Below are positions 9,526-52,093 of a DNA stretch of 64,000 bases, piece by piece. Below the pieces are notes generated by a model. The model was given only the letters and a program-made list of their open reading frames with translations. It had not been told where the DNA came from and did not search any database. Positions within the stretch are counted from its first letter, which is position 1. Each line of letters starts with the position of its first letter. Position numbers and translations under genes: made by a program. Origin of the DNA: a virus; the IMG/VR virus record IMGVR_UViG_3300029448_000010, positions 1-64,000 of that record; one strand, given 5' to 3'.

Positions 9526-10446
9526 TCACACCCATGTATCTTCTTGTGCCGCATCGCATATTCCAAAGAAGGAACAGAATGAGCAAGTTTTGTAAAAGAA
9601 TTTTGCAGGAAATTGACTATTCTCATAAGACCAAATTAAATGGGCTATATGATTCATTACAGAAGTCATCGTTCTTTTTGCAACTTTTTGAGAAAAGGCA
9701 TAATTAGAAACAGGATAGTACCAACCCCAATGAGTTACTTTCTTTTCGGGGTCTAATCCATTCTTAATTAATACTTCATCAGGAGAGTTTTCAATCAACA
9801 GTTGATAAAACGCCATTTCTTTACGCATCATAGTTTTCTTGTAGTCTTTCCACGGCCCTGTTTTATATTCAAAAGGAAGATAGCCGCCATCCACTTCAAA
9901 GATACGGTCAATAATTCCTTGTATGTGTATTACATAATCTCTTCTTAGAGGATATTTAGGGTTAGTATCTTTATCAATAGTTATATTAGCATCAAATTTA
10001 CCTTCATTACAAACAGGTAAGTATTCATCTAACTTACCTTCTGCTCTTGCTTCAATAAAACGCTCGGCTTCAAATGCAGATTGTGTAATTGATATGTCTA
10101 GGTAGTCATCAATAGGATGAAGGCTTTGACAGTATTCATACACTTCATCGGCATTCATAGATTCCGCTTTTTTAATATCAAAATCATTGAAAAAGTTCTC
10201 TCTAGAAGTATGGCAAATTGTTCCTTTCAACATAGCGTCTGTTTGGTCTTGAGGCAAACGCTGAATATAAGAAAAATCGTACTTTTTCTGACACCACTGA
10301 AAAGAACCTAACGAAGATTTCGTTATTTTCAATATAGGCATACTTGGGTCTTCATAATTTTCAGGCTTCCAATCGTAAGTAAAATCTTGCATAGAAGAAA
10401 TTACTGCATTATACTTTTCATCATTATTCATATTACCACCAATCAT
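9526..10446 (-). CDS. Cas4-like PD-(D/E)xK exonuclease (viral, not CRISPR-associated)
   Basis: N-terminal Cys (FQWC), GIIDR...EYKTG, C-terminal CSFC...C Fe-S ligands. Confidence 0.85.
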   Translation of the reverse strand: MIGGNMNNDEKYNAVISSMQDFTYDWKPENYEDPSMPILKITKSSLGSFQWCQKKYDFSYIQRLPQDQTDAMLKGTICHTSRENFFNDFDIKKAESMNADEVYEYCQSLHPIDDYLDISITQSAFEAERFIEARAEGKLDEYLPVCNEGKFDANITIDKDTNPKYPLRRDYVIHIQGIIDRIFEVDGGYLPFEYKTGPWKDYKKTMMRKEMAFYQLLIENSPDEVLIKNGLDPEKKVTHWGWYYPVSNYAFSQKVAKRTMTSVMNHIAHLIWSYENSQFPAKFFYKTCSFCSFFGICDAAQEDTWV

Positions 10447-11320
10447 CTAATTTTCTTTGTATTTTACCAGTTCTTATACTAGATAAGTCCCATTTCATAG
10501 CCTTGTAAATAGGCTCGGCCTTTTTTAAGACCTGTTCTGCGTAGTGTGACCAATCAACCGTATAACTTTCAAAGTCTGCATAGGTTGTGCCGGAAACATA
10601 TTCCACGCTTCTTATTTCCTTAGTCAAAGGATTTGTATAACTATCGTTAACACTCTTTACTTTAAGATAAAGATAAGAGTCGTCAAAGGTCATATCCTTC
10701 TTTTCCCAACCATATAATACACCGGCAATACCGGAACCAAATGTGGGTTTTTTCCCTTCTAAAGTAGTGAAGTTTTTAGTATCGTTACTGCACTTTTTAC
10801 ACCATCCCATTTTCAAACAATCGGTGATGTGATATTTAGTATTACATTTACCGCACTTAACCATAAAGCGATTAGATTTTAACCTACTTCTTTTGATGAA
10901 GTTTTTAATCTCTATCTCACCATTAAGAGTAGCAGTATATTTATCATGCAAGTATGCTAAGATTTCAGTTTCCGTTTTAGAGTTAACCCACATCTTTAGT
11001 ACATCAGTCTGAATAGTTTTTGAGAAGGGAGTTTCACTAACTCTCTTCGCAGTAAAACCCGTCATGGTAAACTTAGGTTTATCTAAATAATTACCATCCT
11101 CCCATACAATCATACCGGCATTTCTATTCTTAGTTACTCCTACTCCTAAAGCAGAATAGTATTTTTCAAACTCTAATACTACGGGGTGTTCATCTAATCC
11201 CATAACATTAGGAAAGGATTCTCTAACGCTAGTTTCGATTTCTTTAATACATTCTTCTGCTCTTTCAATAGAGTCAATCTGAACATAAATAGAATCAGTG
11301 TGTCCGTAAACTACTTTCAT
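10433..11320 (-). CDS. polB: Family B DNA polymerase, C-terminal part (motif C plus thumb, with Zn-finger insertion)
   Basis: YGHTDSIYV, LEFEK, KNRNAG, GFTAKR motifs; CGKC...CKKC insertion. Confidence 0.9.
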   Translation of the reverse strand: MKVVYGHTDSIYVQIDSIERAEECIKEIETSVRESFPNVMGLDEHPVVLEFEKYYSALGVGVTKNRNAGMIVWEDGNYLDKPKFTMTGFTAKRVSETPFSKTIQTDVLKMWVNSKTETEILAYLHDKYTATLNGEIEIKNFIKRSRLKSNRFMVKCGKCNTKYHITDCLKMGWCKKCSNDTKNFTTLEGKKPTFGSGIAGVLYGWEKKDMTFDDSYLYLKVKSVNDSYTNPLTKEIRSVEYVSGTTYADFESYTVDWSHYAEQVLKKAEPIYKAMKWDLSSIRTGKIQRKLDDWW

Positions 11321-11325
11321 AAATA

Positions 11326-12300
11326 TCACTCCAATGGGTGTTCTATATTTTTATCTCCAAGAGTCCACTTTAGGGCTTTGATTACTCCTTCTAATGCCTT
11401 GTAGTTTCTCATGTGATATATGCGGTCTTTCTTATTAGGACTCTGCATTTTAGTATAGTGCATGTTTTGTTTTCTTTCTGCTCTTTCAAGCATAGCATGT
11501 ATATCCGCCCAAGTCCTGTCATAAGTAAAAGGCATAATCACACCTTCAATTTAGCAAGTATTCTTTTCTCTATCTTTTGAGATATAGTTTCATGGTTAAT
11601 CATCCAAGCATCAATCTCGTTGATTCTAAGAGTATCTATTACATCCGATTCTAAAGCATACTCAGATTCTAATTTCCATATCTTACCTGTTAACGCTTCG
11701 ACATCATTTTCTAATGATGTAATGGTTTTCATGTAAGTTTCCATTCTATCTGCTAATCCTTCGTTTTCCATTGTTAGTCTTTCAACTGCTTTATTTAATA
11801 TATCTATTTCATTCATACTATCACCGTTACTATTGTTAAGATGGTTGCTATGTTTACGATATTTACCATCATTAATATCTTGTTACTTTTTGCTATCATA
11901 GCCAGCAATTCTTCTAATAACTCATTCGTCTTGTCCATCATCATGATTAACACCTTGTTCTATATCTATAATGATAGCATTACGCTTCAAGTTATTCATC
12001 ATTTTAAATATCTCTTTTACTTCTTGTAAAGTTATATCCCATGTTTCTTCAGTATCATAAGATACCTTTACTGTTACATATTTAGTCATCATATTAATCA
12101 CACTTCCTATACAAATGTCTAGAATGAGTTACTCCTATTAACACACAATTCCTTGCAAGGTACTGTCCTATTGAGGTGTTGCTTTCAATGTAATTTGACT
12201 TATGGCGTTCCACTAGTTTCTCTCTTATTGTAAGAGCAGTAAAAGGTTCTGTCATTTCTGATATAATTTTATCAGTCCATACTTGGCATCTTTTATTCAT
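11326..12300 (-). other. Block of five small ORFs between the two polB halves (12094-12300, ~11928-12089, ~11813-11944, 11538-11816, 11326-11541)
   Basis: Tightly packed co-directional ORFs with SD motifs; two are under 60 aa and were read by hand. Confidence 0.65.
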
Positions 12301-13964
12301 ACTTTCATCTCCTTTGCCTTAAATGCCGCTAATCTAATTGCTTCTCTTGCACTTGCAGTTATACTTGCGGCTAAATCAACATCAGCCCAAGCAAAACCAG
12401 TATATCCGATTATGCCATAAAAAGATGCAGAAAGCCTTTTTACTGCCATTTGATTGTTATACCACTTAATATAGGCTTTATCATTATTCGATTCCCTAGC
12501 CTCTCGCATAAGACGCTTATATTCATTTCGCAGTTCCTTTAACTCTAGAACAGATTTAGGTAACAAACCTAACTTATCCGTCTTGTAATAAAGCATCTCA
12601 ACTTCTGTAACTTCGCTGAAATCTCTAGGTGTTAGGATATTAACTCCAAACTCCGTAGGTTCAGATGATTTAGTTTCAAAAGAAATGTTTCGTGCTATCA
12701 TCATACTTGGGTACAATCCGCTATAATCAAACGCCGCCACATTAAGATGTAGTCCGTTAGTGTCTTCGCTTAACGGGTCATAAATCATGGCTCCTTTATA
12801 CGATTCTTTCTCAGCCTTTTTGTTTCCTGTTGGTGCTATCCACCAAGCATTTCTCATAAAGTAAATTGAACCCATATGACTTGCATAAAAACAAGCATCA
12901 AAGGGTGCTTTCAATAATCTTTGCAGTGCTATAATCGCCTCACTACAATAATTAGTTTCATCTATTTCAACAATCAATTCAACATCTTTCAAAGCATATT
13001 GCAAATAAGTTTCAGTATCTTCTAACCAAGCCCTACGGTAAAACTCGTTAGGGTCTGGGAATTTTTCACTTACTAGTTTCTTTTTACCTAATAGGATTTC
13101 TGAAACATAATCTAAACTTAAAGAAGGTAATGTTCCTCTTTGTGAATCATTCCATTGTCTTTCAAAAGCAAGGTCTAGATTGAGGGTTATGCGACCCCCT
13201 ATGGGCTGTTCGATAGGTGAAAACCCCTTTTCACCCTTAATGTATTTGAAGCCACCCTTGCTCTTTTTAAGGCCATCTATGCGGTTAATTGGAGACATTC
13301 TATTAGGGTTGATTCCTAATGCACAGCATCTTTCAAGAAGTTTAGGTATATCTGCAAAGTTACCAAACCATGCAATTAACATATCAGGGTCTTTGTCTAT
13401 CATAGTATTAATGAAGTGTTCAAGCATATGCTTTTCATCACTACAATAATTCATATTGCTTATCTCTAAAGAATTATCGAATATATTCAATTCGTTTTCT
13501 TTAGGAAACCAAACCCATTGATGGTATTCTTTATCATAATTATCATACATTACAATAGTAGTAATCTTATCGTGGTGTTCCCCGCCTTGTTGCCATTCCA
13601 TATCCCAATACCATTTACGCATTTTATACTCCGGCATTTCTGAAATAGTGTCAACTGCATATCTAAATGTATAAGGTACATCTGCTTCGTATGTTTTACT
13701 AAACATCTTTCTAGCAGAATAGATGTCAAAGGAGTTTTCCACATATACTCTCTTTAGACTTTCTTTATCTAGATTAACCCAATCACCTCTTTCGTACTCA
13801 AAGTTTCTTCTGATATACTTACTAGGTGAATAATTAGCATGTTCTTTTTCGTCTTCCTTGACATAAAAATAAGGTCTAAATGCTTCCATTAGAAACTTCT
13901 TTTCTCCATTTTCTCTCCAAGACTTAAATACATGCTTTCCATCCATACACCTACTAATTATCAT
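12297..13964 (-). CDS. polB: Family B DNA polymerase, N-terminal part (3'-5' exonuclease plus motifs A and B)
   Basis: WDME, FGNFAD, YALKD exonuclease motifs; FDYSGLYPSMM (A); QMAVKRLSASFYG (B). Confidence 0.92.
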   Translation of the reverse strand: MIISRCMDGKHVFKSWRENGEKKFLMEAFRPYFYVKEDEKEHANYSPSKYIRRNFEYERGDWVNLDKESLKRVYVENSFDIYSARKMFSKTYEADVPYTFRYAVDTISEMPEYKMRKWYWDMEWQQGGEHHDKITTIVMYDNYDKEYHQWVWFPKENELNIFDNSLEISNMNYCSDEKHMLEHFINTMIDKDPDMLIAWFGNFADIPKLLERCCALGINPNRMSPINRIDGLKKSKGGFKYIKGEKGFSPIEQPIGGRITLNLDLAFERQWNDSQRGTLPSLSLDYVSEILLGKKKLVSEKFPDPNEFYRRAWLEDTETYLQYALKDVELIVEIDETNYCSEAIIALQRLLKAPFDACFYASHMGSIYFMRNAWWIAPTGNKKAEKESYKGAMIYDPLSEDTNGLHLNVAAFDYSGLYPSMMIARNISFETKSSEPTEFGVNILTPRDFSEVTEVEMLYYKTDKLGLLPKSVLELKELRNEYKRLMREARESNNDKAYIKWYNNQMAVKRLSASFYGIIGYTGFAWADVDLAASITASAREAIRLAAFKAKEMKV

Positions 13965-39129: not shown

Positions 39130-40563
39130 TCATCTCTTTGGTTTTGGCCCGCAATAGAACAGATTCTTCTTTGCTCTAGTAATTGCTACATAGCAAATGT
39201 TTCTCTCTTCTTTAGGATTAGTAGCCTTTGGGTGAGGCATTCTTTCAGTAGCAAGGATATATACATTGTCTGCTTCAAGACCCTTGGCCTTGTGAACAGT
39301 GGATAGCATAATCTCACCTTTGTCATTGTTATCGAATACTCTCTTAATTTCAGCAATAATTCCACCAACAGTGTCAGCCTTACTTGAAAGAATAAGCAAA
39401 CATTCATGCTTGTCTTCAAGGTTATTTGCTTGGTTAAACTTCTCAGCCTTAACCAATTTATTATACTGGAAAGTATAGTCTTGTTGTAGTAAATCAATAA
39501 ACTCTTTTGAACCCATACTCTCGTTAGAAGTAATCTTCTTAACTGCATTAATCAATCCCTTAGTCATGTCACGGCCTAGAATATAGGCAGACTTACCTTG
39601 AAGGATTAGGTCATAGAAAGCAGAAACTAGCGGTGCATTATATCTGCACAATACCATATCTCCCTCTAAAGGAGTAAAGGCCGCATTTACAATTACATTA
39701 CCATCTTCTGCATCAGAACGGCAACTAAAATCTGTTACATATCTGTTTGCTTCAGCAACGACGCTTTTAGGACATCTCCAAGTTAGACTCAAGGAGAAAC
39801 GCTTTGTTTCTCTATCATCATGACTTAATCTTTCAGCAAACATATTCATTGAATTTGAATCTGCTCCACGGAAGCCATAAATTGCCTGATTAGGGTCGCC
39901 TACAATAATACATCTGCCGCTTCCCACACATCTTGAAATTAACTCTCTTTGCATTTCATTGAAGTCTTGCGCTTCATCAACGAATAGAGTATCAAAGGTA
40001 GGTAATGGCATGTTTAGCACCAAAGGCAACCAAATCATATCATCAAAATCAATCATTGAAGTATTCTCCATACATCTGTTAAGAATGGCTGGAATGTTCG
40101 CTAATGCGATTGCTTCTTCACGGTCTGATTTAAATTCAACATTGTATTCATCAATTAGTCTATGAATTTCTAGAACATCATTACCATCAATCAATGAACC
40201 TTTAATTAGACTAATTAGTTTAACTAGTGGCTGTGCGTAAAAGTCACGACCTAGAATATCATCAATAATATTCTTTACTTTGAAGTTGTTTACTTTGGTT
40301 TTGATACCTGCGGCTCTTAATGCTGCAAATCCTAAAGCATGGAAAGTTTTTGCTTCAACATCATTAGGAAGTCTTTCTCCTAATTCAGTCGCTATTGACT
40401 TATTAAATGCCAAAAACGCTTTCTTATTTCCATTATCTCTATTCGCTCCTTCAACAATTGTAAAGGTTTTACCAACACCGGCTCCCGCATCAACTATGAT
40501 GTGTGAGTTACCGTGTGCTATTTCCTCCCATATTGCTCTTTGTTCTATTGTTCCATTTATCAT
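39130..40563 (-). CDS. UvrD/Rep-like superfamily 1 helicase
   Basis: AGAGVGKT, VDEAQD, VGDPNQAIYGFRGA, STVHKAKGLE, YVAITRAK. Confidence 0.92.
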   Translation of the reverse strand: MINGTIEQRAIWEEIAHGNSHIIVDAGAGVGKTFTIVEGANRDNGNKKAFLAFNKSIATELGERLPNDVEAKTFHALGFAALRAAGIKTKVNNFKVKNIIDDILGRDFYAQPLVKLISLIKGSLIDGNDVLEIHRLIDEYNVEFKSDREEAIALANIPAILNRCMENTSMIDFDDMIWLPLVLNMPLPTFDTLFVDEAQDFNEMQRELISRCVGSGRCIIVGDPNQAIYGFRGADSNSMNMFAERLSHDDRETKRFSLSLTWRCPKSVVAEANRYVTDFSCRSDAEDGNVIVNAAFTPLEGDMVLCRYNAPLVSAFYDLILQGKSAYILGRDMTKGLINAVKKITSNESMGSKEFIDLLQQDYTFQYNKLVKAEKFNQANNLEDKHECLLILSSKADTVGGIIAEIKRVFDNNDKGEIMLSTVHKAKGLEADNVYILATERMPHPKATNPKEERNICYVAITRAKKNLFYCGPKPKR

Positions 40564-40887
40564 TGTTATTCCTCCATTTTTATTTGTGAGTAGGTGGGAG
40601 AAGGAGTGCGATGTATAAATACATCATATCTTCTTGTTGTAGCCCCTTGCTCTCGACTTCTCCCGTTGAAGCGGTAATACTTGGTATTACTTTTTGCTCC
40701 AATACTAAGGGGGGCCACACTATATGAAGGGTGCCGCAGGTCGCCCGACCCCCCTTGATTAACAATTAAATGCCAATCTAGGGTCACTTAACAGTCAATA
40801 AAAAAAGCCCCCACCGAGAGCGAACTCCCGATGAGGGCAATAGCCTGTTAAGGCGAAACCATACCGACTTAATCAAAGCGAATTACT

Positions 40888-41364
40888 TCACTCTGAAGAA
40901 TCATCTGACAAAAGCGAGTTAACGCTTCCATCCCATGTCTTTAGACGATACTGCTTAGAAAGCATGTTTCGTACTTTCTTAGTCTGTGCCGAAGCATAGT
41001 CTTCAGCAGAGTCAAATACTCCGCCACCGGACTTTGCGTGTTTTAGAGACACTGCCGCTATAATACCATCATGGTTATAGTACGCTAATGCCGCTTCTTC
41101 AACAACTCCACAAATGCGGTCAATTGCTACTCTAACTGCTGCTGGAACACTACTTCTTTGTCCACGACGGCCCAAAGGTGAACCATCACGGCCCTTCAAT
41201 AGTGCCTTTAGTGCGTTTGTAGCCGCATCTCTTTCATTCGGGTTTTCCTGACCAACTTGAAGGTGCAACTCAACAACTTGCTTGAGTGCGCCATCTAACT
41301 GTTCATCTGCTTCTAGGTAATCGTTAATCTCGATAACGAGACTGTCCCATTTTACATCTTCCAT
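40888..41364 (-). CDS. Early protein, paralog family member 1 (likely start MEDVKW)
   Basis: Shares SP..xxGxxS, H.K(S/T)GG, WDG with the 44710 and 45513 proteins. Confidence 0.7.
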   Translation of the reverse strand: MEDVKWDSLVIEINDYLEADEQLDGALKQVVELHLQVGQENPNERDAATNALKALLKGRDGSPLGRRGQRSSVPAAVRVAIDRICGVVEEAALAYYNHDGIIAAVSLKHAKSGGGVFDSAEDYASAQTKKVRNMLSKQYRLKTWDGSVNSLLSDDSSE

Positions 41365-41413
41365 ATTTCTCAATTCCTCCCCGCTAACTACGGGGCAAAC
41401 TCTCCACTGGCTA

Positions 41414-41433
41414 ACCATATATAAGGAGAGTCA
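41414..41433 (-). promoter_or_regulatory. Putative TATA promoter (TGACTCTCCTTATATATGGT)
   Basis: TTATATA box about 55 bp upstream of ATG 41364; matches the 34970 motif. Confidence 0.55.
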
Positions 41434-41479
41434 ATGACCTATTTCCGATGTAATTCAGACACCTTTACTTATTACACCT

Positions 41480-42030
41480 ACAACATAATGATTATCAATA
41501 ATAATTAACTAATTACGATATATCGAATTATAATTAAAAAAGAAATGGCTCATTTTAATTAGGCAAACATTATTCCACCGGAAAAATAAGAGGAATAATA
41601 ATAGGTAGTAAAACGACAGGGTTGTGATACATAACTATTCTAATTCTAGGAGGTTTGACATTATTCCATTATTCCACTTTTTTTAGGGGGTCACTATCTC
41701 ATAGGGTCTATACATAACCCTAGAGAATCTAAGGGGTTCATATCCCATAAGAAACAAAGGGGATATACTTGTCAGATTGCCTTAGAGTATATGGAATAAT
41801 GGAATAATGGAATAAAAAAATATCTTTATACTTATGTTACATAACCCTCTAGTTTCTTTAATTATATTTCCATTTTGGGGTGGAAACATCGGTGGAAACA
41901 TCTTTTCCATTGTATATTATATGATATATTATATTCATATTGAATACCTATACCATAGTTATACGCTCAATTGAAAGATAGATTAACTAATAGTCCACTA
42001 TTCCGGTAGTGAAATATTACCTCCAAATAA
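41480..42030. other. Candidate replication origin: AT-rich non-coding region with inverted iterons
   Basis: TTATTCCA x3 (41570, 41661, 41669) facing TGGAATAA x3 (41792-41815); GGTGGAAACATC x2 (41879-41902); GAAACAAAGGGG (41751). Confidence 0.5.
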
Positions 42031-42087
42031 TCGCTCGTTAATACTATGTATCTTGGTTGTAGTGGCACTTTGCAGAACGGAAACCCT

Positions 42088-42136
42088 AAAAAAATAGGAG
42101 GGGAGGCTCCATAGGGGGCGAACCCCCTATGAAGCC
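42088..42136 (-). terminator. GC hairpin (UUCG-containing loop on -) plus T-tract
   Basis: catagggg-gcgaac-cccctatg, with an A-tract at 42088 on +. Confidence 0.65.
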
Positions 42137-42185
42137 AACTTTGGGTGCAATACCCAGTTAACTGAGTGAAAAATCAGATAATTCT

Positions 42186-42446
42186 TCATTCGTCGTTGCG
42201 CTTATTGTTCAACCTGCGAATCATGTTGACAATTTTGTTCTGGTCGTATTTGGTAAAACTACCTGACATGACTATTCTCAAATCTTCATTGAGATGAAAC
42301 CTGTCAAGTCTGATGCTGGGATTAACATCCATCAATCGCCCGACAAAAGCCAGTATTTTCTTTCTATATCTAAAAGCATCAGAGCAGTATTGAATATCAA
42401 TACTCCCTGCGCCAGTCATCAAGTCTATGTTCATTTGTGCGCCCAT
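42186..42446 (-). CDS. Cassette gene, hypothetical
   Basis: GGTGA SD; downstream of repeat 42496. Confidence 0.6.
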   Translation of the reverse strand: MGAQMNIDLMTGAGSIDIQYCSDAFRYRKKILAFVGRLMDVNPSIRLDRFHLNEDLRIVMSGSFTKYDQNKIVNMIRRLNNKRNDE

Positions 42447-42611
42447 ATTATCACCTTGTAATGATAATGGCTCCTGTATATGATATAGGCTCCCTCAAAG
42501 TTACGACCATATGGTTGTAAATCGGCTTTGGTAATTTGCGTTCTTAAAAAAATAGAAAAAAATGATGCAGGGCCGATTTAAGTCACCCTGCATCATTTTT
42601 TACATCAAACC

Positions 42612-42977
42612 TCATACATGCCATCGAATAGCCGTTTTTGGCATTGTCATCAGCAGTGAAAACGCTGCTTTGATATACGATTCTTCATTTTCTTTATCGA
42701 AGAAATCACAAGTTATCGACAATATTTCTTGAAGGTTTTCGGGAACATCACTGAAATTGATTGAGGGTTTCAATCCATTTTCAAGTACCAAGTTTTTGAA
42801 ATCTGCATACATTTTAATTCCATTATCGGACATCAAAGTTATTCCATCTCGTTCTCGGACACATTGACCACATAGAACAGTTATGTTGATTTCTGACAAT
42901 TCATCTTCATGTTCTGAACCATAAAACCCATAACTGACCGTTTCTCCACATTCGCACATACTCTCACACCATGACAT
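42612..42977 (-). CDS. Cassette gene, Cys-rich hypothetical protein
   Basis: GGTGA SD; downstream of repeat 43025. Confidence 0.6.
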   Translation of the reverse strand: MSWCESMCECGETVSYGFYGSEHEDELSEINITVLCGQCVRERDGITLMSDNGIKMYADFKNLVLENGLKPSINFSDVPENLQEILSITCDFFDKENEESYIKAAFSLLMTMPKTAIRWHV

Positions 42978-43074
42978 ATTATCACCTATTAATATCTATT
43001 ATTGAAGATGATATAGGGCCGCTACAAAGTCACAACCATATGGTATTAGACTTTGAGCATCCTTCGGAGAACAA

Positions 43075-43530
43075 AAAAAATAATGAAGAAAATCCGGTTA
43101 ATAGGTCAATCAACTACAATACTGCATTGTTTTTACCCATTTCTCTAGAACTATGGGACTATTTTTTAGCAGAATCACATGTAGTTATGTGATTGACTTT
43201 TCACCTTCATTTCTCCATATGGGAATTGAAAGGTGTTGGACAGGCTATCTTTTAGATTCCTGCATTGTGAGTGAATTATCTTGCATCACTAAGTTTGAAA
43301 GTCCGTTATGGATTTCATATATGAGGTCACAAACTACACAATCTATTCATTGACAGTCAATCAACGCCCTTTTGAGGAACATAGGCCAAGAGCCACTATT
43401 CTAACTCATTTGAGCATCGAATACTGGTTAGACTCGCCACCACAGCGATTAGTGCATACCTTACGCCCCTTCAAGCGCATTCGGTCACCAACTATCCCAA
43501 GAACCCGCTAAAGTACCTTGAGACAATAAT
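43075..43530 (-). ncRNA. Candidate ~450-nt structured non-coding RNA occupying a whole cassette
   Basis: Has a promoter element and T-tract but no minus-strand ORF longer than 24 aa; long-range stems gtcaatca/tgattgac, actaca/tgtagt, aatgaag/cttcatt. Confidence 0.4.
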
Positions 43531-43814
43531 ATGGCACATTACCGTATATATCGGCTACTACAAAGTTACTACCATATGGTAGTGTACTTTGGTGATAGCC
43601 TATTTCAAAAAAAAAATAATAGAAAGCCGATGTAAGTCACTTTCTATTATTTTTTTATTTTGGACACCCACTATGGCACTTTAGACGACCATGTTTCATC
43701 AGTTAATGTCAGACTACTGGCCAGTAGTCCAAATACACCGGATGAGTTTTTGTTTCCCCGTCATTTTTCTGTACCAAACTATTCGGTCAGATTGTGCCAC
43801 AGTGAGTGTGGAAT

Positions 43815-43991
43815 CTATTCATCCCATAAAGCCGCTCTGAAATGCTTTTCGTTGAATGTGTCGCTATCTTCACTTAGCATAGCACATAATTCATTCACTA
43901 GGTCTTCATGGCTTATTAGGCCATCAGACATAGTAACATGATTGAGTACTTTTACTAATGCGAGATAATGTCTTTTTGAAAACTTGCTCAT
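43815..43991 (-). CDS. 58-aa protein MSKFSKRHYLALVKVL...FNEKHFRAALWDE (not in ORF track)
   Basis: Hand-translated; ATGA overlap with 43988-44452; KRHY...D..FN...F pattern seen in small phage early proteins. Confidence 0.65.
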   Translation of the reverse strand: MSKFSKRHYLALVKVLNHVTMSDGLISHEDLVNELCAMLSEDSDTFNEKHFRAALWDE

Positions 43992-44452
43992 TCTTCTTCA
44001 TCTCCTGATAGGTCTAAGTCCCGAATACACAATATAGCCGCAGTACGGTTTCTATCGAATGTGTCGTCATTATCGAATAGAGTTTCAGTCATTTTATGTA
44101 ATTGAAATGACACTACAAGTTTCATATCTTCATCCTTAATCAAGGGAAGTTGTTTCTGTAACTTCAATAATTTATTGATTCTGCCTCTAATCCATGCACG
44201 GTCAATCATTTTGTTACCTGTGCTACTAACTTCATCTATTTGCACAACTCCGACATCAGTACCAAACACAACATAATCAACGCATGTAATTGTTAATTTG
44301 TTAAGGCTCATAGTCCATTCAATATCCGTGCTTGTATCTCTTTCACTCCACATACTAACCATTGTGTTAGTATCTGTGAATTGATATACCATTTGTTTCT
44401 TGATTGTTCCATCATTATACACTGTATCGCCATAGGTAGTTATTATCTCCAT
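43988..44452 (-). CDS. Cassette gene, hypothetical
   Basis: Directly downstream of repeat 44489. Confidence 0.6.
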   Translation of the reverse strand: MEIITTYGDTVYNDGTIKKQMVYQFTDTNTMVSMWSERDTSTDIEWTMSLNKLTITCVDYVVFGTDVGVVQIDEVSSTGNKMIDRAWIRGRINKLLKLQKQLPLIKDEDMKLVVSFQLHKMTETLFDNDDTFDRNRTAAILCIRDLDLSGDEEE

Positions 44453-44539
44453 GTTAATATGGCATATTGGGGGCTATTTAGGCTAGCACAAAGCCGCTAC
44501 CATATGGTTGTAAAATGTGCTTTGGCGTTTGGCGTTCTT

Positions 44540-44606
44540 AAAAAAAAAGGGCTGGGAAAGGGGAATAGCGAGTAGGTTTCATTCTTCTCTCGCTATCCCC
44601 CTTTCT
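44540..44606 (-). terminator. Hairpin plus T-tract
   Basis: gaaagggga-atagcgag...ctcgctat-cccctttc with an A9 tract on +. Confidence 0.65.
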
Positions 44607-44709
44607 CTCATCTTATCGCATTGACTCTGTTCAGATTATTATAATTTTAACTGGTATTCCGATTGCCCGATGAGTATTAATTGGGGCCACAAAGGGTTTG
44701 AAGTGAGTA

Positions 44710-45237
44710 TCAGTGTGATTCCTCCGTTGAGTCCTCGTCACTTTCTTCATTGTCTGATGTTTCCTTAACTAGCGGAGTTATGTTAGTTAGTCCATCATCA
44801 GTCATTGTACCATCCCAACGGTCATCTTTCAATGCCGCCTTTAGTACTCTTACTGCTTTTGTTGCCATATCTTTTGCGTATGCGTCAATATCAGCGTAAA
44901 CACCGCCGGTTTTGCCATGAGGAAGCATAACTTCCAAAACAAGGTTAGCGTCAGTAATGGTTGCAAAGGCAGTTTGAATGCGGTTCTGAACAGAATCCAC
45001 AACAGCCTGTATTGCTGGCTCTAGTGTTGAGCCACGGCCCTTCTTGATAGGTGAGTTTGGCAGTGTTTTGCACAATGCCCTTACTGCCTCCCAAAAACGG
45101 TTCCTATCTTCATCAGATGCGGCATCGTCGCCAGCATCTAAGTTTACTGTAATTACATTAGTCATGGCTCCAGCGTCATTGTGCTGTAACCATGCTCTGA
45201 TTTCGTTAGACTTCATTATCCATTTATCGTTTTCCAT
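44710..45237 (-). CDS. Early protein, paralog family member 2 (likely start MENDKW)
   Basis: DAGAMTNVI.VNL.AG...RFWEAVRALCKTLPNSPIKKGRGSTL is shared with 45513. Confidence 0.75.
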   Translation of the reverse strand: MENDKWIMKSNEIRAWLQHNDAGAMTNVITVNLDAGDDAASDEDRNRFWEAVRALCKTLPNSPIKKGRGSTLEPAIQAVVDSVQNRIQTAFATITDANLVLEVMLPHGKTGGVYADIDAYAKDMATKAVRVLKAALKDDRWDGTMTDDGLTNITPLVKETSDNEESDEDSTEESH

Positions 45238-45397
45238 TCTTTTCATCTCCTGTATTAAAATAACTCCTAATACCAACCTCAAACCCTTTGAGACAATAAT
45301 ATAGCACCCTGCGGTATATGTAGGGTTGAGCAAAGATACAACCATATGGTGTTAAGTGATTATGTAATAATCATCGCTTTGCGACTTAACAGCCTAT

Positions 45398-45473
45398 TAA
45401 AAAAATAAAAGGCTACAACCGGCATAGACTGAATTAACAGATTAGAACTAGTTTTTAATTAGTCTATGCCGGT
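45398..45473 (-). terminator. Long hairpin plus T-tract
   Basis: accggcatagact...agtctatgccggt perfect 13-bp stem. Confidence 0.65.
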
Positions 45474-45512
45474 CATAATGTAAGTGGGGCTACGGGGGAT
45501 ATTCCGCATCAA

Positions 45513-45998
45513 TCATTCTTCTTCTTCAACCTCCAGATTGAAGGTTTGAGCATTTAGTCCATCACGACTACCATCCCAAATACCATTCTTTAGACGCTTT
45601 TTGAGCGAACCTACAATAGTACTCGACATGTATGCTGAATACTCATCAGCAGTGAATAAACCACCGCCAGACTTACCGTGCTTCAATAATAGCATATTCA
45701 TGCTACCAGTAGCAAAAAAATCAGAGGCCGCCTGTGCGACTTCATCTGATATTGAGTCAAGAACCGCTTGAATTTCGGGAGCAAGTGTTGAACCCCTTCC
45801 TTTCTTAATTGGGCTATTTGGCAGTGTTTTACATAATGCTCTAACTGCTTCCCAAAATCTATCTCGGTCTTCATCTGTTGTTGCGCTATTACCTGCTTCA
45901 AGGTTAACTTGAATTACATTTGTCATAGCACCTGCGTCATTTTCATTTAGCCATGCACTTATCATGCTGGCTCTTTCTGTCCATTTCTCTATATCCAT
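45513..45998 (-). CDS. Early protein, paralog family member 3
   Basis: Near-identical N-terminal half to 44710-45237. Confidence 0.75.
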   Translation of the reverse strand: MDIEKWTERASMISAWLNENDAGAMTNVIQVNLEAGNSATTDEDRDRFWEAVRALCKTLPNSPIKKGRGSTLAPEIQAVLDSISDEVAQAASDFFATGSMNMLLLKHGKSGGGLFTADEYSAYMSSTIVGSLKKRLKNGIWDGSRDGLNAQTFNLEVEEEE

Positions 45999-46842
45999 TA
46001 ATAATCAACTCCTAATTGTGTTTGATTAATGCTTCAATCCCCCGAAGCAATAATATAGCCACTTAGGGTATAATTAGGCTAGTCGTTCATTCTTCACTGG
46101 CAAAGCACCTACCATATGGTTGTGAGTCGTAATTCGTCTATATAGATGGCCTTTATGACGATTAAAAACATTCGTTTTGGAGAATAAGGTATTTTTTAAT
46201 AATGAAAGATAACACTTTAATTGAGTTGATGCGATTATTTAGGTGATTTTGGCTTGTATGCGAAGTCACCTATATATTTTTAAAAAATCTATATAGGCCA
46301 ACATAGCAGTTTATACAACCATATGGCTTTGTACAAATTTTTTATTTGCCTATATTAACATTAAAATGCCCATATTTAGGTGTTAATTAGCCAATATTAA
46401 CATTTAAAGGTTAATTATTTCGCCATTATACCGGCATACTTATACCATAAACAGGACTCGCTTAATACGGGATTGATAGTGTCAGACGATAATGATGCAA
46501 TTAAACACCTTAATAATATAGTTAACATTATTACACCAATACTTTCGGATATTAAAACTAATACTGAATCAAAGACTAATATACAAGTTACACCGGATAA
46601 TAAGGTTAAATTAAAAGAAATAGCAAAGATGCTTAAAACATTAAAAGCAAAGATTATAGCATTATACCATCCAAAGCCCACTAAACAAACTTCATTAAAT
46701 ATAAAATAACATTAAATCATTAAGATTTTATTCTGGGAATACATTAATTAATAAAAAAATGCTGACGCTAGTGCCACAAAAATTCCGCCACAATTTTTCA
46801 AAAACGATTCTATTTTAAACAATTAACAGGAAAAGGATTAAT

Positions 46843-49711
46843 ATGACATGGAAAAATAGTATTAAAAAAGCCAAAAAGGTTTATGTTGTCGTAAAGTTCG
46901 GAGCATATCATAATCCTAAAGACCTTAAATTGTCTGTCTTTGATGATAGGAAAAAGGCAGAAGAGGCTTTACAAAAAGTAACTTCATACAACGAAGATGG
47001 CAGTATAGATGACGGTAGTGGAAAAAGAACGAAAGGCGAGGCATATATTTACCAAACTTACATGAATGAAGATTTCCCAAATACACCTAGATTACTAACG
47101 CCACTCAAAGATAGACAACAGAAAAAGAAGTGATTAATATGACACGCTGTAATTATTTAGAAGGCTGGTTCGATAAGGAATCTGCTAAATTAGACAAAGT
47201 TGAGAATGATTATGGTACTTGTTTAGTTACAGGTCAAAAGAAAAAGGCTACTACTTTAACTAAGGCTCAAGCATGGGCCAAAGTATTCAGGAGGAATAAG
47301 GTATGAGTTGGCAAGATATAGTGAAAGTATCAATTACAGAGGGTCTATTCAATCAGACAAAAGAAAAGATGAGAGACATAAAAGCACAGTTAAGTGGTTT
47401 AGAGAATAGTTATACGAAAACGGCTTTAGACGAGATAGTTCATATCTATGAACAAGCAAAGAAGGCTCATAGGGAAAATAATAAAAAACTACTTGGATTT
47501 CATCTTAGAACAATGACAATAATAGGAAAAGACATATCAAACTACTTTGATGCACAAGATATAGTAAAAGGTTCAGATAATGAACGAAATATAAGTGCAG
47601 ATTCTTTTAGAGAATACGGAAAGGCTTCAAAGGAAAACCCTACATCTGCAAAAGACGATATTTCAACCCGTTCTCCTGAATTACAAAAAGGCGCACGGAC
47701 ATATCCACAAGGTATTGAAAAGGTAGGCAAGTTATTTTCTAAAGGAAAAATCGACATGAAGAGATATACAGAACTTCGTAAAGAATTACAGGAAATATTC
47801 GGAGTGGGGGAATAGTATGAGTTGGAAAAATATACTAAAGAGAGAGAAAACACCCCTTGTCCCTGATGAAGCGATGTTTGATATTCCTACTGGGAATTTA
47901 AAAAGTCCTCCTGAAAGCAGGTATTTTGAAAATGCAAAGGTGACTTATATGGAATCTGGCCAATTTGTGTTTGATGAAATAGATAAAAGATATATAATGA
48001 CTGATAAATACAAAAGAGGTGAAGTAGCGGCAGATAGAGCAACTATGGGAGAAATGGATGGAAGACAAGTTGTTTCTTTTGCCCCCCGCAGAGTGGCGAA
48101 AGATGCCTTTATTAAAGTCTTTGACCCCTACATGGACTTTATGCAATCTTGGCATAATCTAGAAACTTTACAAGAAGCAAATAAAGAATGGGAATATCTA
48201 ACCCATAGAGTTATGCTCACTGTTCACACCGCATTAAACAATTTATTCCCAACAGTGGAAGACGCATACAAGTCTAGAAAGTTAAATGGTTTCTTACATT
48301 GGAAAGGTGAATACTATCAGAATCTAATGAATGAGAAACTACCTGATACTATGGAACAAATTAAACCAGCGAAGAAACAACCATCGAAGAAAGAGCCTCC
48401 AAAGAAAAGAGACTATATGGCTGAAAGAAGAGAAAAAATAAAGCGTCTTAGGAGGGATAGGAAATGAGTTGGAAAAATATACTCAAAGACTCAAAAGCCG
48501 CTAATGAAGCACTAGAGATGGATTTCTTTATGAATAATTTAGAAAAGGCTCTAAAGTATGAAACTCAAGATATTCGTTTTGCTGACTTTGGCACTAAACA
48601 AAAGGTGCTAGATATTGCTAAAAAAGATAATTATAACCTACGGAATGCGGATGGAGATTATCACTTTATGACTCTTTCCGTTTCTGATTCTGAAGTAACC
48701 TTTGATGTTAAAAGAGGATTCATAGGGATGATGGTAAGGTTTAGTTTTGAAGGCGATAAAGTCAAATTTAAAATAATTGGGTGATTAAGATGACATGGGA
48801 AGATATAATTAAAGTTGGGAGCCAAACATTCGACTATCGAGAAAGAGCCGGACAACAAATGGTTGCGGATAGAAAAAAACAAGAGTTGGAAAAACTACGA
48901 CTTAAAACACAAAAAGAAATTAGCCAAATCTTGCGAGAAGTGCAGGAAAAACAAAAGTTGCTTGCTCAAAAGAAGAAGATACTAGAGGCAAAAGAAGTAG
49001 CAGATTTAGATGCTTTAGGTATCTCTTTAGGCAATTAGGTGATGCTATGTCTTGGAAAGATTCTCTAAAGAAGTATAGAACCAATGTAAGTGGTTCAGGT
49101 ATGATTCCTTTAGACCATGTACTAAAAGACCATAGTGAATTAGGTTTGAAAATTAGAGGCCTTATGGGTGCAGTAGGTAGTCTTAGGAATAATATGCCAC
49201 GAAGCGTTAGTAAAGTGATGGTTAAGTTAGATAAAATAAAAGAAGAAATGTATAGAGTCGAACAACTTATTACTGCTATGAATGAGTCTTATTCTGCTAT
49301 GGATAAAGAAGATTGGCAAAAGACAATGGAGGACTTAGAATGAGTTGGTTTGATATTATTAAAATGATGACTCCTAGAGAGTTTTTACAGGCACTAAATC
49401 TAGATGGTGACATTAAAGGAAGTGTGGGTAAAGCAGGTACTAATATGTCATTACATCACGATGCTGGTTTTGTTAAAGTCAATCAATCTAAAAAAGGCCC
49501 GTACATCGTAAATGTTGATGGTGAAAGATTTACCGATTATAGTCTAAGTAAGATACTGCCTCAAGTTAAAGACCAAGTTAAAAAGTCCCAAACTTCTTAT
49601 ACAGATGTCTTGCTAAGAGAAGCAGGGGCGGTTAGTACGGCCACCCCTAGTATTATTAATGTAAGATATTCTAAGAAAAAGGAGGATGAGAAGGATGCCG
49701 TCACAGAGTAA
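46843..49711 (+). CDS. Run of small/medium proteins with the MSWxxILK-type leader (46843, 47303, 47817, 48464, 48790, 49047, 49340) plus a 55-aa ORF at 47139-47306
   Basis: Shared 8-aa N-terminus, unrelated bodies, SD motifs and overlaps. Confidence 0.75.
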
Positions 49712-50826: not shown

Positions 50827-51437
50827 ATGAATTGGGAAAATATATTGAAGAAAGATATTAATTGGTTAGATGCGTTTCATAAATTCGGATTTAATGATGG
50901 AGAAAACTATACCGGACAAACAGAAGCAATTGCTGGCTTTTTAGGAACGAAAGGATATTTGTCACATGTAACTAAATCAGGAGGTCATAATACTTTCATT
51001 AGAGCAATATATAAAACAACAATTGCCGAAGGATATGATAAAGAAAAGGTATATCCTCTTGATAGTGAAGAGTCCCGTAGTGGGGCAAGGGAAGATTTTG
51101 CACCTGAATTATTGAAATTATTAGATGACAGATATGGCAAATCAACAAAATCCGAAGGCATTACGAGTTGATTAAAATGAGTTGGGAAAATATTGTAAAA
51201 CGCAGTAATTCTGATGAACTCGATAAGGTATTAGACATGTATTCAGGACTAAAATTTATTGTAAATGATACTTATGCTGATATGATACCTTTTGTTTCTT
51301 TATTACAAAATGGTTCTTTAGAAGAGGCAAATGATGAATGGAAAAAGATGCAGGGTAACATTAAGGATTTAGAAGGTTCACTGAGAGGCATGCAAGAAGT
51401 TAATGATTTTATTACTAAATTGTTAGGTGATGCTTAA
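50827..51437 (+). CDS. Two MSW-leader proteins (50827-51171, 51177-51437)
   Basis: MNWENILKK, MSWENIVKR. Confidence 0.7.
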
Positions 51438-52093
51438 TGATTACTCGCAAACGATGTGCCGTCTGTCAGCATGATGATAGAGAAGAATTAGAAGCCGCTT
51501 TAGAAGGCGCATTTATTTCCTGTGATGATTTAGATAATAGAGAAGGCTGGAGAAGCGGTACTTCTGCAAAGCATCTTAGAAATCACATGGGGGATTATAC
51601 TAACAGTAGTAATCCTAAATGTAAATTGTGTGTTGACCCAATGAGGAAACATTACGAGGAAGCATTATCCGATGGTAATATCACTGCTGAAGGCGTTTCT
51701 CTAGCACTTGATGTTACTAAGGAACAGGTACAGCGACACATGAAGCACCACTTAGCACCTTTGGTTCAACAATCTGCCGCCAACATTATAGCGAAAAAGG
51801 AAGTAAATGAAATCGAACTACTAAGTACTAACATACAAAGGTTAGATGATAAGTTAGATGAGTTATTCAGGAATACAGAATTAGAACCTAGAGAGATAGA
51901 TAGCCTAACTAAACTTGCTAAAGAAGTTAGAGAGAGTCTAAAGTATCTTATGGAGTTTAAGGGCAAACTTATTCACAAGAGACAAGACACAATTATTGTC
52001 GCACAAATGCAAGTTGTTCAAGAAGTCCTTGCACAAAACAATCCTGAGATATGGCTTGAGATTAAAAAGAAAATGCAGGAGAAATTACAATGA
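51437..52093 (+). CDS. terS: Probable terminase small subunit
   Basis: Two CxxC...HxxxH HTH-like repeats followed by coiled-coil helices; upstream of TerL. Confidence 0.5.
   Translation: MITRKRCAVCQHDDREELEAALEGAFISCDDLDNREGWRSGTSAKHLRNHMGDYTNSSNPKCKLCVDPMRKHYEEALSDGNITAEGVSLALDVTKEQVQRHMKHHLAPLVQQSAANIIAKKEVNEIELLSTNIQRLDDKLDELFRNTELEPREIDSLTKLAKEVRESLKYLMEFKGKLIHKRQDTIIVAQMQVVQEVLAQNNPEIWLEIKKKMQEKLQ

What the first reader, a model, noticed from the sequence alone, without database searches (positions are those of the whole stretch)
42496..46331. Array of hairpin-headed cassettes: CAAAG-N5-ACCATATGGT-Nx-CTTTG repeated six times
Palindrome starts are 42506, 43035, 43571, 44499, 45341 and 46111 (variant ACCATATGGC at 46318), spaced 529-928 bp apart. 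Reading the - strand, each unit is: element, weak CC-TATA-like box, conserved GC(T/C)ATATTA motif (four units), one or two genes or an RNA, hairpin/T-tract, next element. Variable bases co-vary to keep pairing (ttacg/tgtaa, tact/agtg, caaagtc/gactttg, caaagc/gctttg), and the G-T wobbles fall on the + (template) strand. This suggests an extruded ssDNA hairpin rather than just a dsDNA operator. The array sits next to the strand-divergence point, the likely earliest-expressed region. Hypotheses: immediate-early hairpin promoters (compare N4 vRNAP promoters), or recombination sites that shuffle self-contained cassettes (compare T4-type PeSL elements and integron attC). No recombinase is visible in the window.
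Basis: partly seen in the sequence, partly recalled or inferred. Interest (0 to 1): 0.82.

Follow-up and report, generated by a model that had tools for sequence, protein, structure and literature searches.

The report
Palindrome-joined gene cassettes in a magrovirus
An ocean virus of archaea keeps six small accessory genes and one abundant RNA as separate promoter-to-terminator units joined by one invariant 10-letter palindrome, and related viruses have flipped, swapped, lost and replaced whole units at that palindrome, much as T4-type phages shuffle genes.

Summary
Six exact ACCATATGGT palindromes, plus one variant, lie in 3.8 kb and nowhere else in the 84-kb genome. The genome is a magrovirus, a tailed virus of Poseidoniales archaea.

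On the gene strand each element follows the previous unit's hairpin and T-run. It precedes an archaeal TATA-like box and a GCYATATTATTG start region. Metatranscriptome contigs cover the units, and one mRNA's contigs end at that start region in two runs.

The same joint occurs 5-9 times, in a single cluster, in each of five other complete records and in dozens of further IMG/VR contigs. It is absent from host-type genomes.

A different hairpin is supported. Each palindrome half (GGT) plus 2-3 variable bases pairs with bases just before a downstream ACC, leaving CTTTG in the loop.

Relatives show inverted, swapped, deleted and replaced units, often with the homology break inside the 10 bp. No integrase, resolvase or Y1 transposase is encoded.

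The closest known systems are T4-type PeSL cassettes and the HGTV-1 motif. Earlier follow-ups in this scan reached the same reading on at least eight other magrovirus genomes. What binds or cuts the joint remains unknown.

The parts
42496..42535 (-). Joint E1. Palindrome 42506-42515, gene-side arm at 42496-42500 (CTTTG on the - strand), far arm at 42531-42535.
43025..43055 (-). Joint E2. Palindrome 43035-43044, with both arms present at 5 nt and 6 nt spacing.
   Evidence: The gene-side arm folds at -5.9 kcal/mol with RNA parameters.
43561..43591 (-). Joint E3. Palindrome 43571-43580, both arms present. It heads the non-coding RNA unit.
44489..44524 (-). Joint E4. Palindrome 44499-44508. Homology with the relatives L070 and L022 starts at 44484, so the joint and its promoter box are kept while the unit behind them differs.
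   Evidence: The arm stem-loop folds at -6.8.
45331..45381 (-). Joint E5. Palindrome 45341-45350. The far arm is 26 nt away because a small hairpin is inserted.
   Evidence: The arm stem GGTTG/CAACC has CTTTG in its loop.
46101..46120 (-). Joint E6, the first of the leftward array. Palindrome 46111-46120. It has no far arm, and its TATA-like box lies 21 nt after CTTTG.
   Evidence: The homology block with L070 ends at 46121.
46318..46331 (+). Joint E7, a variant reading ACCATATGGCTTTG that points to the + arm and is followed by a T-rich stretch. The 35-nt consensus CAACCATATGGCTTTGTnnCAAATTTTTTATTT is kept in 27 different contigs.
45294..45330 (-). Core promoter of unit 5. TATA-like TACATATA lies at 45315-45322 and GCTATATTATTG at 45294-45305. 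RNA contigs of two runs end at 45294. Units 1-4 and 6 have equivalent stretches at 42447-42495, 42978-43024, 43526-43560, 44453-44488 and 46049-46100.
42186..42446 (-). Unit 1: an 86-aa basic protein (pI 9.6) with no known family.
42612..42977 (-). Unit 2: a 121-aa Cys-rich acidic protein. Its homologue in L070 and L022 lies on the opposite strand.
43072..43525 (-). Unit 3: a non-coding RNA of about 450 nt. It is abundant in metatranscriptomes, and its predicted fold shows compensatory changes in the two relatives. Its homologue in L070 and L022 is inverted.
43815..44452 (-). Unit 4: two genes, of 154 aa (43988-44452) and 58 aa (43815-43991).
44710..45237 (-). Unit 5: a member of an acidic all-alpha family of about 170 aa, here called paralogue B.
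45513..45998 (-). Unit 6: a second member of the same family, paralogue C. A third copy at 40888-41418 has the same core promoter type but no palindrome.
42075..42140 (-). Left end of the array: the terminator hairpin and T-run of unit 1, followed by a decayed half joint (CAAAG, 10 nt, then ACCAAGATAC).
   Evidence: (inverted repeat I8), read by eye

Best explanation
The elements are the joints of an accessory-gene cassette array that is a family trait of magroviruses. Each joint is the invariant palindrome ACCATATGGT.

Each half of the palindrome starts a short stem-loop that reads outward from the centre. GGT plus 2-3 variable bases forms one side of the stem, the loop holds CTTTG, and the complementary bases plus ACC form the other side.

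On a gene's 5' side, the ACC runs straight into an archaeal TATA-like box, with a start region about 25 nt further on. On a gene's 3' side, the stem-loop follows that gene's hairpin and T-run. A unit is therefore: half joint, promoter, gene(s) or RNA, terminator, half joint. The host RNA polymerase transcribes each unit on its own.

Every joint shares the same 10-bp core, and that core is its own reverse complement. An exchange between any two joints can therefore delete, invert, move or swap whole units, and it rebuilds a complete joint each time.

Shown here: the anatomy, the clustering, the family-wide conservation, the co-varying arms, the presence of transcripts, and recombination breakpoints at or inside the core.

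Inferred: the joint is read in a folded or protein-bound form. It tunes or insulates transcription of the units. Exchange happens by short-homology or structure-directed recombination using viral or host repair enzymes, not a classical site-specific recombinase.
For: Identity of the virus: split family-B polymerase, ATP-dependent ligase, thermosome-type chaperonin, RFC and class II RNR. The best named chaperonin hit is Poseidoniales virus YSH_150918. A split polymerase is a group B magrovirus trait (PMC5434244).

Clustering: all copies lie in one cluster in this genome and in five other records of 61-96 kb, with 5-9 copies in 3-5 kb each and no hit for the reversed control pattern.

Promoter link: an ACCYTA box starts 4-9 nt after CTTTG, with A at 83%. 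By gene orientation, 83 joints are head-to-tail, 25 head-to-head and 14 tail-to-tail. RNA contigs cover units 3-6, and contigs from two runs end at G 45294, which places TACATATA at -28 to -21.

Arms: 267 arms fold better than partner-swapped controls (RNA -5.21 against -3.52, z -17.8). The base after GGT pairs with the base before ACC in 77% of arms against 42% in controls, and all four Watson-Crick pair types occur. Watson-Crick pairs number 402 against 206 expected, G.T pairs 77 against 94, and A.C pairs 15 against 47.

Shuffling: three units are inverted in L070 and L022 relative to this genome. Two units have swapped places between L074 and L085, and adjacent homology blocks there overlap exactly on the 10 bp. 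A 72-nt stretch between two palindromes in L085 is absent from L074. In L096 against L126, one flank is about 99% identical while the other is unrelated, with the switch at the palindrome. Among inter-locus palindrome pairs, 28 have one homologous flank and 14 have both.

No classical recombinase: no Resolvase, Phage_integrase or Y1_Tnp match.
Against: No protein that binds or cuts the joint was identified.

In this window only three of the six gene-side arms fold convincingly (E2, E4, E5). E1, E3 and E6 are weak.

The distance from the palindrome centre to the TATA-like box varies from 16 to 34 nt, with a mode of 20, and shows no compensation between its parts. That is loose for a factor that must touch the basal transcription machinery.

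Two promoters of the same core type lack the joint: paralogue A near 41500 and the helicase operon near 40700. The joint is therefore not needed for promoter activity as such.

The transcript-end evidence comes from assembled contigs of one study and is only a weak hint.

Not every breakpoint lies in the core. At E4 the homology with L070 runs through the joint and its box and stops behind them.

Ten base pairs is very short for ordinary homologous recombination.
Confidence: 0.6

Rival explanations
1. The joint is a dedicated site-specific recombination site, making an integron-like or shufflon-like cassette exchange system. An enzyme not recognisable as a known recombinase, viral or host, binds the two stem-loop arms and cuts at the central ATAT. 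The centre is symmetrical, so both deletion and inversion are allowed.
For: Crossovers map inside a 10-bp core that is the only sequence the exchanged partners share. The core is nearly invariant while its flanks are unrelated. The co-varying arms with a conserved loop look like a structure-specific recognition site. Exchanges occurred even at joints that lack the CAAAG/CTTTG arms. Head-to-head and tail-to-tail joints exist.
Against: The 91%-complete genome has no serine or tyrosine recombinase and no Y1 transposase. The complete element is not found in Poseidoniales or any other cellular genome beyond chance, with 16 loci in 185,579 species. The consistent position next to promoters suggests direct selection on transcription. 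Short-repeat recombination can produce the same junctions over long times.
Confidence: 0.2
2. The joint is a plain double-stranded operator or upstream activating site for a dimeric transcription factor that co-regulates the units. On this view recombination at it is an accident of repetition, and the arm hairpins have no role.
For: A perfect dyad lies upstream of the TATA-like box, at about -58 to -49 from the inferred start, which is where archaeal activators bind (established knowledge, not tested here). The half-sites are spaced about one helical turn apart. Core promoters without the joint exist, so the joint could be a regulatory add-on.
Against: Variable stem bases co-vary. A sequence-reading protein on duplex DNA does not explain that. 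G.T pairs are tolerated but A.C pairs are not, which points to one folded strand. Joints persist at tail-to-tail junctions without a promoter. No DNA-binding fold was found in array proteins, and the commonest array family is acidic with no fold match.
Confidence: 0.1
3. The joint is a hairpin promoter read in single-stranded form, in the manner of phage N4 early promoters, either by a special polymerase or by the viral TFB-like factor.
For: The gene-side stem-loop ends at the foot of the TATA-like box. The virus encodes a divergent TFB-like protein with a TFIIB zinc ribbon (E 1e-4, below Pfam's cut-off).
Against: No multisubunit polymerase was found, and the search for the single-subunit type was inconclusive. 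The same stem-loop is just as well formed on gene 3' sides.
Confidence: 0.06
4. The joints are origin-linked repeats, meaning binding sites for a replication initiator near the strand-switch point.
For: The array lies at the minimum of cumulative GC skew, near 46000, and beside AT-rich repeat-bearing DNA at 46340-46410 and 41560-41910.
Against: Gene direction also switches there, so the skew is not independent evidence. The joints are spaced by whole genes and are tied to promoters and terminators. Other repeats nearby are better origin candidates.
Confidence: 0.03

Closest known systems
PeSL (promoter-early stem-loop) cassettes in the hyperplastic regions of T4-type phages (Arbiol et al. 2010, PMC2839356; Comeau et al. 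2014, PMC4122927)
   Same: Both are short, conserved composite motifs that combine a promoter and a stem-loop. In both, many copies cluster among small genes of unknown function that turn over quickly. In both, insertions, deletions and replacements between related genomes have their ends at the motif, so whole self-contained units are shuffled.
   Different: The host here is an archaeon, so the promoter is of the TATA-box type rather than sigma-70. The shared core is only a 10-bp perfect palindrome with two co-varying arms, not a 50-70-bp conserved promoter-terminator. Crossovers fall inside those 10 bp, and inversions are common. The separate hairpin and T-run terminators are not part of the conserved motif. 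Mini-circles were not looked for.
Conserved motif before most left-arm ORFs of the haloarchaeal myovirus HGTV-1 (a TATA-like region plus an inverted repeat; Sencilo et al. 2013, as described in PMC3950731)
   Same: This is also an archaeal tailed virus. Its repeated motif holds a TATA-like box and an inverted repeat in front of many small ORFs. Its authors already compared it to PeSLs and proposed roles in transcription and shuffling.
   Different: It belongs to a different virus family and host. I could not read the HGTV-1 motif sequence, so identity is untested. As far as the review states, shuffling there was a suggestion, whereas here breakpoints are shown by comparison of relatives.
Integron attC cassettes, shufflon sfx sites and invertase hix/gix sites
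   Same: These are arrays of units bounded by a repeated, partly palindromic site. The site folds (attC) or has a symmetrical centre (hix), and units are excised, inverted or reordered at it.
   Different: No integrase or invertase is encoded here. The units carry their own promoters and terminators. The site has a twin-hairpin form with an invariant core.
Phage N4 early hairpin promoters
   Same: A small hairpin lies next to the promoter.
   Different: No virion RNA polymerase was found. The hairpins occur at gene 3' sides too, and the basal promoter looks like an ordinary archaeal one.

Membership tests
PeSL-type mobile regulatory cassettes | A conserved composite motif that joins a promoter to a stem-loop | tested here: met
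   The palindrome with its co-varying stem-loop arm abuts a TATA-like box.
PeSL-type mobile regulatory cassettes | Many copies clustered in a plastic region of small accessory genes | tested here: met
   There are 7 copies in 3.8 kb here, and 5-9 copies in one 3-5 kb cluster in each of five other records. Gene content differs between relatives.
PeSL-type mobile regulatory cassettes | Indel, replacement and rearrangement breakpoints between related genomes lie at the motif | tested here: met
   Block ends fall within 40 nt of a palindrome 83 times against 29.8 expected. Blocks overlap exactly on the 10 bp in L074 against L085.
PeSL-type mobile regulatory cassettes | A strong sigma-70-type early promoter | tested here: not met
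   The host is an archaeon. The sigma-70 scan gave no more sites than shuffled sequence, and the box is TATA-like. This is therefore an analogue, not a member in the strict sense.
PeSL-type mobile regulatory cassettes | The stem-loop works as a transcription terminator | not testable with these tools
   Separate hairpins with T-runs precede the joints.
PeSL-type mobile regulatory cassettes | Mini-circles are formed by exchange between neighbouring motifs | not tested
Integron (attC / IntI) | A tyrosine recombinase IntI encoded beside the array | tested here: not met
   PF00589 gave no match in the whole record at E <= 1, while all 14 control genomes were positive.
Integron (attC / IntI) | Promoterless cassettes expressed from one common promoter | tested here: not met
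   Each unit has its own TATA-like box and start region.
Serine invertase or shufflon systems | A resolvase or invertase gene | tested here: not met
   PF00239 gave no match.
IS200/IS605-type hairpin-guided single-strand transposition | A Y1 (HUH) transposase TnpA | tested here: not met
   PF01797 gave no match.
N4-type hairpin promoters | A virus-encoded RNA polymerase that reads the hairpin | tested here: inconclusive
   PF00562 gave no match, with controls positive. PF00940 gave no match, but its controls did not respond either.
Archaeal BRE/TATA promoter | A TATA box centred about 26 nt upstream of the transcript start | tested here: inconclusive
   RNA contigs of two runs from one study end at 45294, which puts TACATATA at -28 to -21. 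Contigs cannot prove a start.
Magrovirus (Poseidoniales tailed virus) | The hallmark gene set: family-B polymerase (split in group B), ligase, RFC and a thermosome-type chaperonin | tested here: met
   and PMC5434244.

The most novel reading that the evidence does not exclude
The twin-hairpin joint is the substrate of a recombination machine of a so far unrecognised kind, with no integrase, invertase or HUH enzyme. It would give abundant ocean archaeal viruses a plug-and-play cassette system. Every half joint carries either a promoter or a terminator, so any exchange, in either orientation, yields working genes.
Probability: 0.2. Interest if true: 0.85.

Novelty: new variant of a known kind. 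Interest (0 to 1): 0.62.

Why it matters
Magroviruses are among the most abundant viruses of the surface ocean, and neither they nor their hosts are in culture. The magrovirus papers I could search do not mention promoters, palindromes or repeats.

The joint gives three things:
- A first cis-element and promoter model for these viruses.
- A simple sequence marker, ACCATATGGT flanked by CTTTG, that finds the accessory-gene region in any magrovirus contig.
- A concrete account of how the viruses exchange accessory genes and RNAs, including one very abundant structured RNA.

If a dedicated enzyme reads the joint, it would be a new recombination system.

Tried and rejected
- Single hairpin across the palindrome. 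Spacer complementarity in 20 symmetrical sites was not above shuffled partners. The MFE of 86 sites was worse than swapped controls. Rejected.
- Bacterial promoter and terminator scan. It gave no more sites than in shuffled sequence, and the host is an archaeon in any case.
- Rfam on 40000-48000. Only two chance-level hits.
- Phage collection, by DNA and by protein. No magrovirus is held there.
- Host origin of the site. The full element occurs in cellular genomes only at about chance level and never in Poseidoniales.
- The acidic family of about 170 aa as the binder. It occurs in 29 of 35 arrays, but it is acidic (pI 4.6-5.2) and all-alpha. It matched nothing beyond generic three-helix bundles, no Pfam or PHROG family, and gave no Atlas hit. 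It is not supported as a DNA binder.
- Pfam on about 60 proteins of the genome. No clear transcription factor was found. There is only a TFB-like zinc ribbon and a weak HTH_20 match (E 0.0013, on the L019 member) in a conserved protein family whose copy here is the 218-aa protein at 51437-52093.
- More relatives of the ncRNA, sought by pattern scan. Only L022 and L070 are true homologues.
- RNA contigs. None of them crosses a joint. Missing cover in contigs is not evidence, so it is not used.
- Control anchors shifted from the palindromes. They gave flatter distributions, but the samples are small and the control is imperfect, so it carries little weight.
- Fixed distance from palindrome to TATA-like box. 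It is not fixed, and its parts do not compensate.

Full report
WHAT THE GENOME IS. The window is bases 1-64000 of an 83,930-bp IMG/VR virus record judged 91% complete. It encodes a family-B DNA polymerase split into two genes, an ATP-dependent ligase, a thermosome-type chaperonin, a class II ribonucleotide reductase, an RFC-like clamp loader, an ERCC4-HhH nuclease and a PD-(D/E)XK nuclease. The chaperonin's closest named relative is from Poseidoniales virus YSH_150918. A split polymerase is described for group B magroviruses (PMC5434244). This is therefore a magrovirus, a tailed virus of Marine Group II archaea, and its genes must be read by an archaeal transcription machinery. No RNA polymerase was found in the record (one search was inconclusive). 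There is a divergent TFB-like gene with a TFIIB zinc ribbon.

THE OBSERVATION. No shuffle of 100 reached the count, and the rest of the genome has none. All six units are read on the - strand. Each has this order: the hairpin and T-run of the previous unit; about 15-25 nt; CAAAG; 6-26 nt; the palindrome; exactly 5 nt; CTTTG; 5 nt (21 nt in unit 6); a TATA-like box (GCCTATAT, GCCGATAT, CCCTACAT and similar); and about 12 nt later, in units 3-6, GCYATATTATTG.

The units carry six small protein genes (units 1, 2, 5 and 6 one each, unit 4 two). Unit 3 has no reading frame on that strand. The seventh site (46318) points the other way, toward the + arm.

TRANSCRIPTION. Metatranscriptome contigs from three studies match units 3-6. 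For the gene at 44710-45237, contigs of two runs from one study both end at 45294. That is the G of ATATTATTG, 47 nt beyond the palindrome. It places the TACATATA box at -28 to -21, as expected for an archaeal promoter. Contigs cannot prove a start, so this is a weak hint.

The non-coding stretch 43230-43501 has contig depths of 110-620, against 2-28 for its neighbours. Two further promoters of the same core type, before 40888-41418 and before the helicase operon, have no palindrome. The joint is therefore an addition to a promoter, not the promoter itself.

A FAMILY TRAIT. A scan of IMG/VR for ACCATATGGT-N5-CTTTG returned many contigs of 60-97 kb with 2-6 matches each. In five other records searched whole, all 5-9 copies lie in one 3-5 kb cluster, with a single exception, and the reversed control pattern has none.

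The full element occurs in 185,579 cellular species only about as often as chance predicts, and never in Poseidoniales. The variant at 46318, with its T-rich tail, is kept almost letter for letter in 27 different contigs. After CTTTG, a box ACCYTA follows at 4-9 nt.

HAIRPINS. It fails. Complementarity is not above shuffled partners, and real sites fold worse than partner-swapped ones. The impression of pairing comes from a spacer consensus that is itself a palindrome.

Earlier notes of this scan on other genomes mentioned hairpin arms with CTTTG in the loop, so I tested that as well. It holds strongly.
- The outward-read arm, from ATGGT through CTTTG and 14 nt beyond, folds better than partner-swapped arms. 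The values are -5.21 against -3.52 kcal/mol with RNA parameters and -2.42 against -1.32 with DNA parameters, at about 17 standard deviations over 267 arms.
- The base after GGT pairs with the base before ACC in 77% of arms, against 42% in controls. The next two positions give 72% against 43% and 63% against 49%. All four Watson-Crick pair types occur.
- Watson-Crick pairs are twice the expected number. G.T pairs are near expectation (77 against 94). A.C pairs are depleted threefold (15 against 47).
- The same pattern holds at gene 5' sides and gene 3' sides.

So the strand that reads outward from the centre is the one selected to fold, on both sides. The ACC of the ACCYTA box is the closing half of the stem. 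In this window the gene-side arms of E2, E4 and E5 fold well, while E1, E3 and E6 fold poorly.

SHUFFLING. Against its closest relatives L070 and L022 (about 75% nucleotide identity), this genome keeps the helicase, paralogue A and the right-hand block E4-E7 in line. The Cys-rich protein, the ncRNA and the homologue of the 154-aa protein lie on the opposite strand, each with its own joint and promoter.

Between L074 and L085, two units have changed places. Neighbouring homology blocks there overlap on exactly the 10 bp of the palindrome. L085 also has 72 nt between two palindromes where L074 has a single palindrome.

In L096 against L126, L045 against L109 and L010 against L083, one flank is 90-100% identical and the other unrelated, with the switch at the palindrome. 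Over all pairs, one-sided flank homology (28) is twice as common as two-sided (14). Block ends lie within 40 nt of a palindrome 83 times against 29.8 expected; part of that excess is simply that joints are intergenic.

By gene orientation there are 83 head-to-tail, 25 head-to-head and 14 tail-to-tail joints. That is what repeated inversion at a self-complementary core would leave behind. Not every break is in the core: at E4 the homology with L070 runs through the joint and its box and ends just behind them.

WHAT DOES THE EXCHANGE. The genome has no resolvase, tyrosine integrase or Y1 transposase. It does carry repair and recombination enzymes that could act on short repeats or folded DNA: ERCC4-HhH, PD-(D/E)XK, an AAA_24 protein, an RNase H-like protein, a ligase, and a UvrD-like helicase beside the array.

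The protein family most tied to the arrays is about 170 aa long and occurs in 29 of 35 arrays, with three copies here. It is acidic and all-alpha, and it has no Pfam, PHROG or fold match. It is more likely cargo than reader.

COMPARISON AND VERDICT. In function this is an archaeal-virus counterpart of the PeSL cassettes of T4-type phages (PMC2839356, PMC4122927). A similar motif, a TATA-like box plus an inverted repeat before many ORFs, has been noted in the haloarchaeal virus HGTV-1 and likened to PeSLs (PMC3950731).

This case differs from those in having an invariant 10-bp self-complementary core, twin co-varying arms with outward polarity, frequent inversions, and crossovers inside the core. 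I file it as a new variant of a known kind. Earlier follow-ups of this scan reached the same reading on at least eight other magrovirus genomes. My tests here were made on this genome and on freshly fetched relatives.

Noticed in passing
window 43072-43525 (- strand): Unit 3 is a non-coding RNA of about 450 nt. Metatranscriptome contigs cover 43230-43501 at depth 110-620, against 2-28 for the neighbouring genes. It is conserved in L070 and L022. RNAalifold gives 99 pairs, 26 of them with compensatory changes, including one helix in which all five pairs changed on both sides. It has no Rfam match.
   Followed up: partly
window 41560-41910: The gene-free AT-rich stretch left of the array holds tandem 8-nt repeats (TGGAATAA, three copies at 41791-41822). 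Inverted copies lie at 41659-41676 and 41567-41577, and there are two tandem 12-mers, GGTGGAAACATC, at 41879-41902. These are iteron-like and mark a candidate replication origin. None of the four RNA runs laid has a contig on it.
   Followed up: partly
window 46700-46842: The non-coding stretch before the first + arm gene is conserved at the nucleotide level in about 19 diverse contigs (TTTTATTCTGGGAATA ... CGCTAGTGCCAAAAAAATTCCGCCACATTTTTTGA). It is a candidate promoter or leader of the structural arm.
   Followed up: partly
window 46341-46408: Just after joint E7 there are two direct repeats of about 26 nt (GCCWATATTAACATTWAAA), 42 nt apart. They are also present in L022 and L070. Their function is unknown.
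   Followed up: no
window 45280-45290 and 44690-44700: The 5' leader of the paralogue B mRNA (CAAAGGGUUUG) is exactly complementary to a stretch of its 3' untranslated region (CAAACCCUUUG).
   Followed up: partly
window 40888-41418, 44710-45237, 45513-45998: Three paralogues of an acidic all-alpha family of about 170 aa carry conserved LPNSPIKKGRGSTL and HGKSGGG loops and an acidic tail. The family occurs in 29 of 35 related arrays. The AlphaFold model has pLDDT 84.8, and there is no known fold or family match.
   Followed up: yes
locus L102:25-354 (- strand) and 11 other loci: A 109-aa cassette protein in relatives matches Pfam Kyano_Gp96 (E 5e-16), a family of T4-like cyanophage proteins. 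An accessory-gene family is therefore shared between ocean archaeal and bacterial viruses. It is not present in this genome.
   Followed up: partly
window 51437-52093 (+ strand): This 218-aa protein has CxxC pairs. Its family gives a weak HTH_20 match (E 0.0013, on the L019 member). It is 57-70% identical across eight diverse relatives and always lies a few kb into the + arm. It could be a small terminase or a regulator.
   Followed up: partly
locus L138 (NZ_NZTP01000027.1, labelled Altibacter sp. MAG): This 14.8-kb contig filed under a Flavobacteriia MAG carries two full joints, the E7 variant, the helicase and the array family. It is most likely a magrovirus fragment binned by mistake.
   Followed up: partly
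window 10433-11329 and 12297-13964: The family-B DNA polymerase is split into two genes about 1 kb apart, as reported for group B magroviruses.
   Followed up: partly
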